The position numbers and the translations under genes are program-made. A stretch of 36,841 bases of DNA from a virus (Duplodnaviria > Heunggongvirae > Uroviricota > Caudoviricetes), in the IMG/VR virus record IMGVR_UViG_2703718801_000025. One strand, 5' to 3'. Below the pieces are notes generated by a model. That model ran no database searches. It was not told the DNA's origin and saw nothing but the letters and a program-made list of their open reading frames with translations. Below are positions 24,779 through 28,342 of the stretch, one piece after another (position 1 is the stretch's first letter; the number at the start of each line of letters is the position of its first letter).

Positions 24779-24827
24779 TCGTCCCACAATACAAGGCAAA
24801 GAGCATACTCTTTGCCTGTAATTACAG

Positions 24828-25163
24828 TTATACTTTGCACCTCTTTGAATAATCTGCAATAATTTCCTCAACACCATCAAAAATAACTTTAAACTTTTCA
24901 AAACTAATTGTTTTACAATTTGCCTTTATAACCTTTGTTGAAAACACATGCTTACCATATTCTGTTTTTGTATCCGTATCATTAGATTTATTAAATGTCT
25001 TTCCATCAAGCACCGTTGATAGTACCGTGCTATCAAATAAATCCTCCATACAAGACTCTTTCCCTCCAGGAAGCAATGGTGTTAATAACAAATAGAGATT
25101 GTCAAATATGTGGGTATACCTTGCCTTACGAATAGTATCAACATCATTTGGACAATTTTTACT
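24828..25163 (-). pseudogene. displaced C-terminal segment of the RT-Toprim gene (-1 frame relative to the RT ORF)
   Basis: This frame is open from 25163 and reads NCPNDVDTIRKARYTHIFDNLYLLLTPLLPGGKESCMEDLFD... with no ATG or RBS of its own. Adding one base in the homopolymer at 25156-25160 joins it to the RT ORF, giving about 585 codons. Confidence 0.6.
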
Positions 25164-26584
25164 TTATCCTTTAAGTGATTTAATAAATCTTTAGGGCCTG
25201 AGTCATTATCAAGAAGCATAATAACAGGGTGCTTTGGTTTAAATTTCTCGAACCTCTTTTTTTGTTCTTGGTATCTTAATATAAATCTTTTGAAGTCTGT
25301 AGCACCGCCAGAAATGTCAAGAAAATAGCTTGTTTTTTCAGTTGCTTTAAAAAAATTAACACGATACTCATTTTTAGAGCTATCATCAGAAGAATTAAAC
25401 AATAAAGGATATGAATTCGCCAATGACTTCAAAGCACACTTTAAATATACACGGTCTGTTTTACCCTCAGTGAGTATTGTTGGCATTTCCATTCCATGAA
25501 AATTTTTATAGTATAGAAAATAACTGTAGGCTTTTTCTCTCGAATTCAATTTTGCAGTGTAATTTAATCCATGATTTACACTTTGGTACTTTTCCAACTG
25601 TCTTGCATTCTTTAGTTTTAAATTATTATATTTATCTATTGAGTCAATGAATCCAAAACGGCCTTCTAATTTAGCACATGTACCTTTTTCAATCTTTCCT
25701 GATTCAGTAACAATAACAAAAGAACCATCTTTATAAAGAGAATGAGCCATGGCACGCGTTACTTTTGCATATTCTTTGCCAACATTCACTTTTTTATTAA
25801 CAGTCAACCCAGTAACATCTTGTCGTGATGTTTTATAACAAACCCTTGTCTTTTTATCATTTATTTTAAAGCCAGCCTTTATAATCTCTTTAATTAAAGT
25901 TGGACTTAGGGTTACAGACTCTCCGCCAACATCAGCAATCTCTTTTGGAAATGTTTTTTTATTAGTTGAAAATGTAAGATCATCAGCATACCGTGAATAA
26001 TTGCATCCGTATTTCTTTGCTAACTTTGATAATCTTATATCAAGAATTCCACTGATTAAGTTACTTATAATTGGAGAGCATGGGCTTCCTTGAGGAAGTC
26101 CATTCTGAAAACATGCAATTTGTGCGATCGTTGTAGCAACAGTATTATTTAATCTAAAATCTCTGTTTGATAAGAAAAAACCTCTAACACGTCCAAAATT
26201 AAAACTATCAAAATAATCCTCAAGATCTATATTTAGTAGTAGCGTTTTACCTCTATGCCGTTCAGCATTCGTAATAATTGACTTTTCTTTTTCAAACCCA
26301 TGAGATAAAACTGGATTAATATTATATTTTTTATAAATTTCTGCACGACATAAATATAAAACATCAGCTAATCTACGTTGAATATCTTTGAGCTTAGTGG
26401 TAGGTGCTGATATGACTCTCGGCGCTCCGTTTTTTTTAGGAATAGTAAATTGTGTATACTGCGTTTCAGCTTTTAAACGATAAATAACATCCGTAAGAAA
26501 AGCAGTTTTAAGATTCAAGATACTAGCCAAATCTTGCCTGTTAGCAGCGTTTTGTAAACGTTCTAAAATTGATAGGGGTGCCAT
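25082..26584 (-). CDS. retron-type reverse transcriptase fused to a Toprim domain; frame ends early through an apparent 1-nt frameshift
   Basis: RT motifs LLNIDLEDYF, NGLPQGSPCSPIISNL and YSRYADDLTF (YADD catalytic box), then Toprim-like TEGKTDRVY and MLLDNDSG. The last 24 codons (IVQMMLILFVRQGIPTYLTISICY) look non-native. Confidence 0.8.
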   Translation of the reverse strand: MAPLSILERLQNAANRQDLASILNLKTAFLTDVIYRLKAETQYTQFTIPKKNGAPRVISAPTTKLKDIQRRLADVLYLCRAEIYKKYNINPVLSHGFEKEKSIITNAERHRGKTLLLNIDLEDYFDSFNFGRVRGFFLSNRDFRLNNTVATTIAQIACFQNGLPQGSPCSPIISNLISGILDIRLSKLAKKYGCNYSRYADDLTFSTNKKTFPKEIADVGGESVTLSPTLIKEIIKAGFKINDKKTRVCYKTSRQDVTGLTVNKKVNVGKEYAKVTRAMAHSLYKDGSFVIVTESGKIEKGTCAKLEGRFGFIDSIDKYNNLKLKNARQLEKYQSVNHGLNYTAKLNSREKAYSYFLYYKNFHGMEMPTILTEGKTDRVYLKCALKSLANSYPLLFNSSDDSSKNEYRVNFFKATEKTSYFLDISGGATDFKRFILRYQEQKKRFEKFKPKHPVIMLLDNDSGPKDLLNHLKDKVKIVQMMLILFVRQGIPTYLTISICY

Positions 26585-26614
26585 ATCTAAAAATCAACCT
26601 TGATTATCAGTTAG

Positions 26615-26755
26615 GGTAGGCACATGTAGGCACTCTTACGCAAAGCATAGGACAGCCCAAGAATGGCTACAAGGATGTCAGAAGGCGAATCCATCTAACA
26701 TTTAGATCACTGATTGCGATACCACAACCAACAAATCTGCCTACATGTGCATGTT
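26615..26755 (-). ncRNA. msr-msd: retron msr/msd non-coding RNA (template for msDNA)
   Basis: 13-bp inverted repeats gcacatgtaggca (26738-26750) and its complement (26620-26632) flank about 105 nt just upstream of the RT start, the a1/a2 arrangement of retrons; internal short hairpins present. Confidence 0.55.
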
Positions 26756-26832
26756 TAAGCTACCATGATCATTTAAGAATGTGAAGAACCGTTAACAGTT
26801 TTGAAAGAGCCAGATCATAGCATTGCGCGCGC

Positions 26833-26851
26833 TCGTATCCCCGCCACGCCT
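26833..26851. other. candidate cos (cohesive-end) site
   Basis: Minus strand reads GGCGTGGCGGGGATACGAG, closely matching the start of the 19-nt P2/186 cohesive end (GGCG[A/T]GGCGGGGAAAGCA) as remembered. Confidence 0.45.
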
Positions 26852-27229
26852 GCCCGCTTTATGCAGTGGTTTTCATGCACATGCATGACATGAGCAAAAG
26901 CCCGCCAGTTCTGGCGGATCTGAGCAAAGACGATCCTCAATCGATCATGCGATTTCATGCAGCATAGTCATGCACTGTCAAAGAAGTAAAAATCCGTATC
27001 TGAATGGCCACTTGAAAAACGGATCATACGGGTTTACAAAGATGAATGTTCGCTGTGAACGGGAAGCGGAAGTTAACTTTCAGATAACATAATCCATATG
27101 CACGAGAACCTCTAAAATAGAATGGGACACCTAAGCGGGGTACTTACAACGATTCTTTCCATATTCACAGTTAACACTCTGTTTGGCGTATTTTTATTCA
27201 AATAGCAAACACCAATAAAAGGAGTTTCC

Positions 27230-27565
27230 ATGAACAATATTCCCCCTATACCACAGTTAGGAATTTATGTCTCAAAAATCGATCCCACCCTACGTATCAC
27301 TGTAACCGATGTTGATATTGTTGATGGTGAGGATGATTCTCCTGATGATGAATTGTTTTATTTAGTCCACTGGATCGAGGGGGAAGATGAAAGTGATATG
27401 ACAGCAATGGGATTTGAGCTAGACCCAGTAGAGTGGCAGGCTTTCGTTGAATCTGAGCAATTAGTGTTTGAGCGTGATCCGTACATGGATTCAATCCCCG
27501 AAAATTCAAACTTGGCAAAGATTCGGGATTTTCTCATGAAGACTAAACAGAATGATCATTCGTAA
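27230..27565 (+). CDS. small highly acidic hypothetical protein
   Basis: 111-aa ORF with a strong RBS (aaaaggag), about 26 Asp/Glu against 7 Lys/Arg; no recognisable family. Confidence 0.5.
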   Translation: MNNIPPIPQLGIYVSKIDPTLRITVTDVDIVDGEDDSPDDELFYLVHWIEGEDESDMTAMGFELDPVEWQAFVESEQLVFERDPYMDSIPENSNLAKIRDFLMKTKQNDHS

Positions 27566-27757
27566 GTGTAAGCATCCATCAGGAAAATGGTTTTGTAAGT
27601 GAATCATCAACTTTTAGAGAGTCTCAGACACTCCCACTTCTGCTTCTGACACAAAGCGGACGATCACTTATCAAAATAACCGCCCACCTTACGCCTTATT
27701 TCACTCATTGCCCAAACTAGCCCCCATCAGAATGAATCCTCCTGGGGGCAACATTTC

Positions 27758-27991
27758 TTAATGCAGCCAGCTGTCGTCCTCCCACACCTTCTGCATAATT
27801 TTCATCACTTGTTTTCTTTCTTCATCCAGTTGCAGTCCGGTTAGTTCCACACCGTTAGAGCTACCTTTGCGAACGCGAATTACCGTTTTGGGATACAGGG
27901 GGCGCAGATTGCGGTAAAGCTCGGATTCAAGGGCGTCCAGGGTAGACTGGCTAATCTTCTGCTCTTTATCGATCATTATTTCAATGCGCAT
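27758..27991 (-). CDS. DinI-like protein
   Basis: Starts MRIEIMIDKEQ and ends IMQKVWEDDSWLH, resembling E. coli DinI (MRIEVTIAK...ETWESADDWF); own SD (gaggtg) 6 nt upstream of the ATG. The track ORF extends to 28063. Confidence 0.65.
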   Translation of the reverse strand: MRIEIMIDKEQKISQSTLDALESELYRNLRPLYPKTVIRVRKGSSNGVELTGLQLDEERKQVMKIMQKVWEDDSWLH

Positions 27992-28001
27992 AAAAGTCAC
28001 C

Positions 28002-28190
28002 TCAGCTGATGACATCCATTGAGCGGTTGTATTCGTGGCTTCTGATTTTTGCCATGAGTTCATCAGTCAATTCAGAAACCCACTGCAGAGCCAGCCCCTT
28101 CTCTTCATCACTACACTCACTAGCCGCTACAAGCTTAAGAAAAAAATCAATGCGCTGGAGCTTCAAAGACTCCAAAAAATAGTCCTGCAT
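28002..28190 (-). CDS. small SOS-controlled hypothetical protein, possibly the N-terminal half of a Tum-like antirepressor
   Basis: 62-aa ORF with a perfect SD (aggagg), directly downstream of a LexA box and translationally coupled to the DinI-like ORF. Confidence 0.5.
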   Translation of the reverse strand: MQDYFLESLKLQRIDFFLKLVAASECSDEEKGLALQWVSELTDELMAKIRSHEYNRSMDVIS

Positions 28191-28232
28191 CTTTCCTCCT
28201 ATGACACCAAAACAATACTGTACACATAACCA

Positions 28233-28248
28233 CTGTTTATATTTACAG
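28233..28248. promoter_or_regulatory. LexA (SOS) box over the promoter of the small-ORF/DinI-like operon
   Basis: CTGTTTATATTTACAG fits CTG-N10-CAG with an AT-rich centre and sits among -35/-10-like hexamers upstream of the 28190 start. Confidence 0.6.
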
Positions 28249-28342
28249 TATATAATAATCTTACTGATGTAAAACGTTTTTTTACGTTCATCGGCCTGAT
28301 ATGCCTGGTATTATTAAGAGCACGAATTGTTAACCCGCGTAA

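What the first reader, a model, noticed from the sequence alone, without database searches (positions are those of the whole stretch)
27230..27565. Strongly acidic small protein next to cos
This 111-aa ORF has a net charge near -19 with clustered Asp/Glu stretches (DVDIVDGEDDSPDDE, EGEDESD), a strong RBS, and lies on the opposite strand to its neighbours in the accessory region between cos and the SOS operon. Small, very acidic phage proteins are often DNA mimics that block restriction or other nucleic-acid-sensing defences.
Basis: inference. Interest (0 to 1): 0.55.

Follow-up and report, generated by a model that had tools for sequence, protein, structure and literature searches.

The report
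Acidic prophage protein of unknown function
This is a real, conserved and very acidic 111-residue prophage protein (family DUF8087, "Ybl33" of E. coli B) that came from a phage lysogeny operon and now sits in the defence-gene hotspot beside the DNA-packaging site; nothing ties it to known DNA-mimic anti-restriction proteins, and its role is unknown but easy to test in common lab strains.

Summary
Window 27230-27565(+) encodes a 111-aa protein with net charge -19 and pI 4.05, behind an AAGGAG ribosome-binding site. It lies 380 bp from the cos cleavage site of a P2-like prophage and converges on a LexA-controlled orf62/DinI-like operon.

It belongs to Pfam DUF8087 / PHROG 17127, a small uncharacterised family. 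Acidity is conserved across the family (core charge -12 to -21), and stand-alone copies are under purifying selection (dN/dS about 0.14).

AlphaFold gives a small beta-barrel plus helices (pLDDT 76-79). No sequence or fold match to Ocr, ArdA or any solved protein was found.

Divergent relatives sit in the lysogeny operon of P2/186-like prophages (cI, Flk_N-like, DUF8087, int). The window copy is a relocated cassette that still carries a 16-codon integrase stub and the Flk_N-like gene's last codons. It occupies the slot and orientation of P2 old/tin.

The cassette recurs next to Mokosh, Lamassu, PD-T7-1, retrons and other defence genes. It is absent from 50,697 phage records and present in 1 of 72,556 plasmids.

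My best reading (confidence about 0.35) is a resident-state conflict protein that acts as an electrostatic decoy. An anti-defence DNA mimic remains possible (about 0.25). No experimental evidence on function was found.

The parts
27230..27565 (+). DUF8087 (Ybl33, WP_001059831.1) coding sequence: 111 aa, net charge -19.
   Evidence: ORF and composition; PHROG 17127, 2e-70, full length; PF26332 = DUF8087 on all homologues; dN/dS about 0.14
27219..27224 (+). Ribosome-binding site AAGGAG, 5 nt before the ATG.
   Evidence: the purine-rich block is kept in nearly all aligned cassette copies
27062..27229 (+). Upstream block conserved among cassette copies in different genera (73-87% identity). It presumably carries the cassette's own promoter, but no sigma-70 consensus site was found.
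   Evidence: conservation reaches 127-184 nt upstream of the ATG; no promoter-like match here
27116..27205 (+). Remnant of the 3' end (transmembrane tail and stop codon) of an Flk_N-like gene. That gene precedes DUF8087 in the lysogeny-operon arrangement.
   Evidence...CTGTTTGGCGTATTTTTATTCAAATAG aligns with L054 ...CTGCTTGGTGCGGTTTTATTCAAATAG, with the same stop position; nucleotide homology to L054 starts at 27179; weak peptide match LSGVLTTILSIFTVNTL / LSGAIVGALLVVITNTL. Only the last ~9 codons are secure.
27552..27602 (+). Remnant of the 5' end of a P2/186-type integrase gene (MIIRKCKHPSGKWFCK*). It overlaps the end of the ORF, as intact int does in the lysogeny-operon arrangement.
   Evidence: L054 int MTVRKLPSGKWLSECY...; other cassette copies keep a 71-codon stub at 60-65% identity to int over ~40 aa
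27720..27749 (.). GC-rich hairpin between the convergent DUF8087 and DinI-like genes, possibly a bidirectional terminator.
   Evidence: inverted repeat I10; -16.2 and -18.9 kcal/mol, z -2.6 and -1.6; no clear U-tract, so only suggestive
26832..26850 (-). cos cohesive-end sequence GGCGTGGCGGGGATACGAG, a landmark 380 bp from the ATG. The conserved cos region spans 26825-26974.
   Evidence: alignment with the P2 cosR/cosL junction; 150-bp block conserved in P2-like phages and about 1800 E. coli genomes

Best explanation
The gene encodes a member of the uncharacterised family DUF8087. It is a resident-state (lysogen-expressed) accessory protein of P2-family integrated elements.

Shown: in the more divergent relatives the gene sits in the lysogenic operon, in the order cI repressor, Flk_N-like tail-anchored protein, DUF8087, integrase. 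The window copy is a cassette cut out of such an operon. It keeps an integrase 5' stub and the last codons of the Flk_N-like gene. It was inserted in the cos-proximal slot, in the place and orientation of the P2 lysogenic-conversion genes old and tin. The stand-alone protein is still under purifying selection.

Inferred mechanism: the protein has no enzymatic domain. It is a compact beta-barrel with a conserved core charge of about -16, a flexible poly-Asp/Glu loop and an invariant Trp69 within a near-invariant E-L-D-P-x-E-W motif. I propose that it acts stoichiometrically as an electrostatic decoy, occupying the nucleic-acid-binding surface of a basic protein.

Because it is expressed with repressor and integrase, always lies among anti-phage cargo, and is missing from phage isolates and plasmids, I think the target is most likely a protein brought in by a competing phage or mobile element. 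That would make it an exclusion or defence function comparable in logic to P2 Tin. I think an entry-phase anti-restriction role is less likely.
For: - Real, constrained gene: (dN/dS median 0.14 over 64 pairs of stand-alone copies).
- Acidity conserved down to 28% identity: core net charge -12 to -21, eight columns at least 80% D/E, invariant P8/G11/Y13/V25 and near-invariant D56/E63/W69.
- Lysogeny-operon home in six divergent lineages, with stop/start overlap to int.
- Integrase stub and Flk_N-like tail flank the window copy.
- Same slot and orientation as P2 old/tin, whose mRNA starts about 150 bp from cosR and reads inward.
- The slot between cos and DinI is itself variable in E. coli. Elsewhere it holds DarTG, a P-loop NTPase, DUF4145 or nothing.
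- The repressor-integrase slot of this same prophage carries PD-Lambda-1.
- Cassette neighbours elsewhere are defence genes: Mokosh II MkoC at 1497 bits, a TmtA/MkoA-like helicase with NACHT, Lamassu LmuB, PD-T7-1, PD-T4-7 and a GmrSD/NsnA-like protein. Betaproteobacterial copies sit beside SRA-HNH, Gabija, an R-M system and a TIR-NLR.
- Resident-element distribution: 0 of 50,697 phage records, 1 of 72,556 plasmids, but 214 of 5,426 complete E. coli genomes and 36 IMG/VR prophage-type contigs.
- The P2 cos-proximal locus is an experimentally supported defence hotspot (PMC9122126).
Against: - No experiment and no homology to any characterised protein supports any function.
- Known single-gene exclusion proteins of this size are mostly membrane proteins. 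A soluble 12.8-kDa acidic protein is more typical of inhibitors of host defence.
- PADLOC models do not hit it.
- Co-location with defence genes is also seen for anti-defence genes and for passive hitch-hikers at recombination hotspots.
- No promoter was detected upstream, so expression of the relocated copy in lysogens is assumed, not shown.
- Rousset et al. list the protein only as 'hypothetical' in P2 loci (Table S5A). I found no test of it in the text and stored tables I searched.
- The structural model is of only moderate confidence (pLDDT 76-79).
Confidence: 0.35

Rival explanations
1. Anti-defence inhibitor. The acidic protein mimics nucleic acid and blocks a restriction enzyme or another nucleic-acid-sensing defence system. 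This would protect the prophage or island DNA, possibly in the resident state as prophage anti-CRISPRs do.
For: Extreme acidity is conserved across the family, and the protein is small, soluble and non-enzymatic. It is carried only by mobile elements. In Morganella it lies on an island that also carries a PF03230 'Antirestrict' gene. It is a narrow family with specific conserved residues, as expected for an inhibitor of one particular target.
Against: There is no sequence or fold relation to Ocr, ArdA or any solved mimic. The main acidic cluster is a flexible loop of variable length. The gene is absent from sequenced phage genomes and essentially absent from plasmids, where anti-restriction mimics abound. 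Its ancestral position is the lysogenic operon, not an early or leading region. A DefenseFinder anti-defence survey of 1511 P2-like prophages found only Anti_RM and Anti_CRISPR hits, in 28 of them (PMC13586616). That shows no known model covers this protein; it does not show it is inactive.
Confidence: 0.25
2. Housekeeping co-factor of the element. It would modulate integrase, the excisionase (Cox/Apl/AlpA-like) or the GpA replication nuclease, for example by sequestering a basic DNA-binding protein to stabilise lysogeny.
For: It shows stop/start overlap with int in P2/186-like prophages. The linkage to int plus Phage_GPA elements extends to Betaproteobacteria. There the gene is divergent from the HTH_17-GPA operon, on the side where a repressor would sit, or directly follows int.
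Against: Stand-alone copies are kept under purifying selection in islands and ICEs where no P2-type int or GPA lies within the 4-14 kb of flank examined. Only about 130 of roughly 1800 E. coli genomes that match this P2-like region carry it there, so P2-like phages do not need it. In the window it is separated from int by about 8 kb.
Confidence: 0.15
3. Partner, antidote or immunity protein of the Flk_N-like tail-anchored membrane protein, as a two-gene module. The window copy would be an orphan antidote left after loss of the partner.
For: An Flk_N-like gene lies 10-26 nt upstream in the three lysogeny-operon contexts measured, and directly upstream in all six lineages examined, although it has diverged to 40-47% identity. 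The window keeps only the truncated tail of that gene. Very acidic small proteins are typical immunity or antitoxin partners (general knowledge). Larger cassette copies carry a different 127-aa membrane protein downstream.
Against: No partner is present in the window or in the betaproteobacterial copies. An Flk_N-like gene occurs without DUF8087 in Escherichia phage 520873. No toxicity or interaction data exist.
Confidence: 0.15
4. Functionless relic that hitch-hikes with recombination at the cos hotspot.
For: It is flanked by gene stubs, no promoter was detected, and it has low GC (40% against 50%), typical of imported DNA.
Against: dN/dS is 0.10-0.22, the reading frame is intact, and the ribosome-binding site is conserved across genera. 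The protein is 100% identical next to at least 15 different left-hand cargos.
Confidence: 0.05

Closest known systems
Pfam DUF8087 (PF26332) / PHROG 17127 / E. coli B 'Ybl33'
   Same: Full-length member: PHROG 17127 at 2e-70 over 1-111. All homologues carry the precomputed PF26332, and RefSeq now names it 'DUF8087 domain-containing protein'.
   Different: Nothing differs. However, the family is only a catalogue entry, and no paper in the searched library mentions DUF8087, PF26332 or ybl33 in this sense.
P2 lysogenic-conversion genes old and tin (cos-proximal 'TO' hotspot)
   Same: Same slot between cos and the A-side operon, same inward orientation from cos, variable between related prophages, low GC (PMC9122126).
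   Different: There is no sequence relation. Old is a 586-aa ATPase-nuclease and Tin a 253-aa protein, whereas this is a 111-aa acidic barrel. An anti-phage phenotype has not been tested.
T7 Ocr and ArdA DNA-mimic anti-restriction proteins
   Same: Small, very acidic and carried by mobile elements.
   Different: No Pfam or PDB sequence match. The predicted fold is a beta-barrel, not a helical or three-domain dimer. The acidic cluster is in a variable loop. The gene is not found in phage isolates or conjugative plasmids and is lysogeny-linked rather than early or leading.
SH3-like / Tudor-like small beta-barrels (FeoA, DtxR C-terminal domain, DUF1653, UvrD/PcrA Tudor, CarD RID)
Prophage-mediated defence genes placed beside the immunity cassette (for example PD-Lambda-1 in this window; mycobacteriophage examples, from my own knowledge)
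   Same: They occupy the position between repressor and integrase and are expressed with the lysogeny genes.
   Different: No defence phenotype or effector domain is known for DUF8087.

Membership tests
Pfam DUF8087 / PHROG 17127 | Significant full-length match to the family profile | tested here: met
   PHROG 17127 at 2e-70 over 1-111/111. PF26332 is precomputed on 61 and 88 homologue clusters and named DUF8087. The local Pfam copy predates the model.
Ocr (T7 gp0.3) | Sequence homology to Ocr | tested here: not met
   No Pfam family at E<=0.1. The profile search against all PDB chain sequences (which I believe include Ocr) gave 0 hits at E<=10.
Ocr (T7 gp0.3) | All-helical elongated dimer with carboxylates arrayed like bent B-DNA | tested here: not met
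Ocr (T7 gp0.3) | Early gene of a phage, expressed from the first DNA to enter | tested here: not met
   Absent from 50,697 phage records. The ancestral context is the lysogenic operon. Which P2 end enters first was not established here.
ArdA | Sequence or fold homology to ArdA and location in leading regions of conjugative elements | tested here: not met
   No Pfam or PDB match. Found in 1 of 72,556 plasmids, and that one is non-mobilizable.
DNA-mimic proteins in general | High density of surface Asp/Glu | tested here: met
   Net charge -19 over 111 aa. The family core charge is -12 to -21.
DNA-mimic proteins in general | Charges fixed on a rigid surface with phosphate-like spacing | tested here: inconclusive
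   The largest cluster (residues 32-42) has pLDDT about 60 and varies from 5 to 13 residues among homologues.
DNA-mimic proteins in general | Binds and inhibits a DNA-binding protein | not testable with these tools
   Needs pull-down, EMSA competition or complex prediction.
P2 cos-proximal hotspot cargo (old/tin class) | Lies between cos and the gpA-side genes, is transcribed inward, and is replaced by other cargo in relatives | tested here: met
   cos at 26832-26850. P2 map. The slot holds DarTG, a P-loop NTPase, DUF4145 or nothing in other E. coli.
P2 cos-proximal hotspot cargo (old/tin class) | Confers resistance to other phages | not testable with these tools
   Listed as 'hypothetical' in Table S5A of PMC9122126. 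I found no test of it in the text and stored tables searched.
Known anti-phage defence proteins (PADLOC 2.0) | Match to a defence-protein model | tested here: not met
   0 families.
Toxin-antitoxin / immunity pair | Adjacent cognate toxin or effector gene | tested here: not met
   In the window only stubs flank it. The Flk_N-like neighbour in the lysogeny-operon context has no known activity.

The most novel reading that the evidence does not exclude
DUF8087 could be a new kind of conflict protein: a small acidic beta-barrel decoy with no relation to known mimics. In the resident prophage or island it would neutralise a conserved nucleic-acid-binding protein. That target could be an invader's replication, packaging or regulatory protein, making DUF8087 a new single-gene immunity. 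It could instead be a defence nuclease, making DUF8087 a new anti-defence fold. If so, it has spread as a self-contained cassette among defence hotspots of prophages, ICEs and islands from Beta- to Gammaproteobacteria, and it is already present in BL21, E. coli C, W and E2348/69.
Probability: 0.25. Interest if true: 0.7.

Novelty: new variant of a known kind. Interest (0 to 1): 0.42.

Why it matters
The cos-proximal locus of P2-like prophages is a proven reservoir of anti-phage systems, yet this protein is recorded there only as 'hypothetical'. It is one of the recurrent occupants, present in about 4% of complete E. coli genomes, including BL21/B, C, W and EPEC E2348/69. If it is an exclusion factor or a defence inhibitor, it affects phage work done daily in those strains. 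It would also add a new fold to the small set of protein decoys. The same cassette sits next to Mokosh, Lamassu, PD-T7-1, retrons and other systems in several genera, which makes it a useful marker of defence cargo. The integrase and Flk_N-like stubs document how a lysogeny-operon gene became a mobile single-gene cassette. If it has no phenotype, it is an ordinary orphan accessory gene.

Tried and rejected
- Pfam, NCBIfam and PADLOC scans of the ORF gave no hit. The local Pfam copy lacks PF26332.
- A profile search of all PDB sequences at E<=10 gave nothing.
- Foldseek against BFVD and against all PDB gave nothing at E<=0.001. The AFDB library was unavailable.
- tblastn against 50,697 phage records found nothing, and against plasmids a single record.
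- Literature searches for PF26332, DUF8087, ybl33 and 'P2-like' plus 'DNA mimic' found nothing relevant. The supplements of PMC13586616 are not held.
- The Rfam search at permissive threshold over 26400-27800 found no RNA family, so there is no evidence for an RNA gene instead of or beside the ORF.
- The promoter scan found no sigma-70 consensus upstream of the ORF, and manual inspection of the conserved upstream block gave no convincing -35/-10 pair.
- A specific link to retrons is rejected. The ORF is 100% identical next to Ec67-type and Ec86-type retrons, DprA-PRTase and at least a dozen other left-hand cargos.
- The imperfect inverted repeat bracketing the cassette (27104-27117 / 27612-27625) is at chance level among 21 such pairs and was not pursued.
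- The search for related loci with the diverse alignment A2 failed because no stretch was conserved enough.
- The look-up of P0035 returned no record.
- Complex prediction with Int, Cox, GpA or the Flk_N-like protein could not be run with the tools allowed.

Full report
**Observation**

It has 26 Asp+Glu and 7 Lys+Arg, giving net charge -19, pI 4.05 and 12.8 kDa. It is the most acidic of the 61 ORFs of at least 80 aa in the window, at -0.171 charge per residue against -0.108 for the next. AAGGAG lies 5 nt before the ATG. GC content is 40%, against 50% for the window. Both neighbouring genes are on the other strand.

**Locus**

The window is a P2-like prophage. It has gpA (Phage_GPA, 3.6e-127), portal and terminase genes, and a DinI-like gene, with the chromosomal sRNA RybB at one end.
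- Over 24779-28343 the window is identical to E. coli 13E0780.
- The P2-type 19-nt cohesive end GGCGTGGCGGGGATACGAG is at 26832-26850, inside a 150-bp block conserved in P2-like phages.
- To the left of cos, between cos and the portal gene, lies a retron of the Ec67 family: RT-Toprim, type I-C.
- To the right, 380 bp away, the acidic ORF starts and reads away from cos.
- It converges on orf62 and the DinI-like gene.
- In phage P2 the same place and orientation are occupied by old and tin. Their mRNA starts about 150 bp from cosR and reads inward.
- The stretch between cos and DinI is itself a variable slot. In other E. coli it holds DarTG, a P-loop NTPase, a DUF4145 protein, other hypothetical genes or nothing.

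**Family**

- The protein matches PHROG 17127 (unknown function) end to end at 2e-70.
- All homologues carry Pfam PF26332, which is DUF8087. Newer RefSeq records use that name, and UniRef calls it Ybl33.
- No paper in the searched library mentions any of these names in this sense.
- The family is small: 61 clusters at 90% identity in 5.8 billion proteins with the single sequence, and 88 with a profile. A profile search of 1.84 billion representatives found 35 clusters at 50% identity.
- All members are stand-alone proteins of about 44-150 aa with no fused domain.
- Close members (50-100% identity) come from E. coli, Klebsiella, Raoultella, Citrobacter, Enterobacter, Serratia, Morganella, Providencia, Proteus, Edwardsiella, Pectobacterium, Lonsdalea and Xenorhabdus. 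Distant ones (28-45%) include Nitrosospira.
- Acidity is a family trait. The core net charge is -12 to -21 (median -16) in 50 sequences, and eight columns are at least 80% Asp/Glu. The loop between strands 2 and 3 varies from 5 to 13 residues and is 58% Asp/Glu.
- P8, G11, Y13 and V25 are invariant. K16, R22, D56, E63 and W69 are nearly so.
- Pairwise dN/dS among stand-alone copies has a median of 0.14 over 64 pairs, and the window against the others gives 0.10-0.22. This is therefore a constrained protein-coding gene.

**Structure**

Two AlphaFold2 runs with different alignments agree (pLDDT 76.0 and 78.9; pTM 0.60 and 0.63). They give strands at 11-15, 22-31, 43-50, 61-64 and 78-82, and helices at 66-76, 84-87 and 94-108. 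The acidic loop at 32-42 has low confidence.
- Foldseek finds nothing significant in BFVD (best E 0.016) or in all of PDB (best E 0.3).
- A profile search of PDB sequences at E<=10 is empty.
- No known DNA mimic or anti-defence protein appears in any list.

**Contexts elsewhere**

(a) In the more divergent enterobacterial members (50-77% identity; six lineages, L004, L015, L017, L054, L055, L057) the gene lies in the lysogeny operon of P2/186-like prophages. The order is cI-type repressor, a 209-215-aa Flk_N-like protein with a C-terminal membrane anchor, DUF8087, then integrase. The DUF8087 stop overlaps the int start in most of them.

(b) The 85-100% clade is a mobile cassette. In the larger copies DUF8087 is followed by a 71-codon stub that is 60-65% identical to the first ~40 residues of the P2/186-type integrases used as probes (about 90% to the L054 integrase), and then by a 127-aa membrane protein.
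- The window keeps 16 codons of that stub (MIIRKCKHPSGKWFCK*, 27552-27602).
- Just upstream of the ORF it keeps the last codons and the stop codon of the Flk_N-like gene (27179-27205). These align base for base with the lysogeny-operon locus L054.
- Nucleotide homology to L054 runs from 27179 to 27601 at 79%.
- Conservation among cassette copies extends to about 27062.

In E. coli about 132 complete genomes carry the cassette in the cos slot, and 83 carry it in an island at ychF. That island also holds a TmtA/MkoA-like helicase, a NACHT protein and RadC. In 27 IMG/VR contigs the cos-slot copy is 96-100% identical, while the distance to the portal gene takes at least 15 values from 1.6 to 3.9 kb. 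The cargo left of cos therefore varies independently. BL21 has retron Ec86 there and E2348/69 has the DprA system.

In other genera the cassette sits beside:
- Mokosh type II (MkoC, 1497 bits) in Morganella;
- Lamassu LmuB in Serratia;
- PD-T7-1 in Proteus;
- PD-T4-7, a GmrSD/NsnA-like protein and PDC-S45 in IMG/VR viral contigs of unnamed host;
- a DUF4365-TPR protein in Lonsdalea, which like Symbiopectobacterium also carries a DUF2857 protein (a family I know from ICEs);
- a filamentous prophage (Zot, secretin) in Xenorhabdus.

(c) Betaproteobacterial members have a basic N-terminal extension (MGQAKLRGSKEERIAQSKARKQ). They lie in small integrative elements made of a P4-type integrase, an HTH_17 (AlpA-like) gene and a Phage_GPA gene. 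The DUF8087 gene is either divergent from HTH_17-GPA or directly after int. Variable defence cargo is always beside it: SRA-HNH, SMEK, Gabija, BglII R-M or TIR-NLR.

(d) The gene is missing from 50,697 GenBank phage records and present in one of 72,556 plasmids.

**Interpretation**

What is shown:
- The gene is real, constrained and acidic across the family.
- It originated in a lysogeny operon and moved as a cassette.
- It now occupies the old/tin slot of a hotspot experimentally linked to anti-phage defence (PMC9122126).
- It is a gene of integrated elements, not of virions or plasmids.

What is inferred:
- With no catalytic domain and a conserved charge, it most likely works by binding. It would act as an electrostatic decoy for the nucleic-acid-binding surface of a basic protein, with specificity supplied by the conserved barrel face (E63, W69).
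- Co-expression with repressor and integrase, the company of defence genes and the resident-element distribution favour a function exerted in the lysogen against incoming competitors. I give this about 0.35.

Rival explanations:
It is not an Ocr/ArdA relative and lacks the distribution and timing expected of entry-phase anti-restriction.
- A role in the element's own integration or replication control (0.15) fits the coupling to int and the deep linkage to GPA elements. It does not fit the maintenance of stand-alone copies in islands with no P2-type int or GPA nearby.
- A role as partner or antidote of the Flk_N-like protein (0.15) fits the lysogeny-operon arrangement. However, the partner is absent here and in Betaproteobacteria, and an Flk_N-like gene occurs without DUF8087 in phage 520873.
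- A dead relic (0.05) is contradicted by dN/dS.

**Novelty**

The family is catalogued but uncharacterised. The protein was listed as 'hypothetical' in Table S5A of PMC9122126, and I found no test of it. No known family membership beyond the DUF could be established. I rate it a new variant of a known kind (a small acidic accessory protein of mobile elements), of moderate interest. It is easy to test because the gene is in BL21, E. coli C, W and E2348/69.

Noticed in passing
window 24828-26584 (-): The retron Ec67-family RT-Toprim gene (type I-C; NF038237 at 627 bits, PADLOC RT-Toprim_I-C) is split. A 500-aa ORF (25082-26584) matches only positions 1-465 of the 572-position model. The rest of the Toprim domain lies in a separate 73-aa ORF (24828-25049), which RefSeq annotates as its own 'hypothetical protein'. 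This is either a frameshift that may inactivate the retron or a sequencing error.
   Followed up: partly
window 26620-26750: A perfect 13-nt inverted repeat (26620-26632 / 26738-26750, 105 nt apart) lies between the RT start and cos. It has the layout expected of retron a1/a2 arms around msr-msd. Rfam finds no family there even at E<=1.
   Followed up: partly
window 28233-28248: A perfect LexA box CTGTTTATATTTACAG sits in the 150-bp gap between gpA and the orf62 (phrog_698) / DinI-like genes. This is an SOS-controlled two-gene operon at the position of 186 tum.
   Followed up: partly
window 33721-36841: The lysogeny operon of this prophage carries a PD-Lambda-1 homologue (34029-35705; 399 bits; DUF4041 + T5orf172/MUG113) between the C repressor and integrase. 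This is the same slot in which DUF8087 sits in Klebsiella-type prophages.
   Followed up: partly
window 2700-2778: The RybB sRNA (105 bits) lies a few hundred bases from the prophage's late-gene end, so the prophage appears to be integrated next to rybB. The att sites were not mapped.
   Followed up: no
L003 6659-7042; L021, L022, L046 6538-6921; L052 538-921: A 127-aa predicted membrane protein (MDTLSI.GIFEVFVNNWVPGIF...) with no Pfam or PADLOC hit travels with the DUF8087-int' cassette in E. coli, Lonsdalea, Proteus and viral contigs. It is missing from the window copy. It could be a functional partner or a passenger.
   Followed up: partly
L059, L060, L061, L063: Small integrative elements were found in Nitrosospira and related metagenome contigs. 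They are built from a P4-type integrase, DUF8087, an HTH_17 (AlpA-like) gene and a P2 gpA-like replication gene. They carry swappable defence cargo (SRA-HNH, SMEK, Gabija, BglII R-M, TIR-NLR). They look like a P2-related mini-element or satellite family with its own defence hotspot.
   Followed up: partly
L004 5343-5990; L015 318-947; L017 3345-3974: Prophage proteins of 209-215 aa carry an Flk_N domain (PF27202) and a C-terminal membrane anchor. They lie between repressor and DUF8087 in P2/186-like lysogeny operons. Their function is unknown, and they are rare in sequenced phages (only Escherichia phage 520873 and a weak Ralstonia hit).
   Followed up: partly
L068 (E. coli DFL.5, island at ychF): In 83 complete E. 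coli genomes the DUF8087 cassette lies in an integrative island next to ychF. The island carries a very large NACHT protein, a 1589-aa Sacsin-like/SF1 helicase (TmtA/MkoA-like), an AAA ATPase, RadC, DUF2787 and two recombinases. It is a likely defence island.
   Followed up: partly
window 27104-27117 and 27612-27625: An imperfect 14-nt inverted repeat (86% complementary) brackets the cassette close to where homology with other copies ends. It is one of 21 similar pairs in 1.3 kb, so it is probably chance.
   Followed up: no
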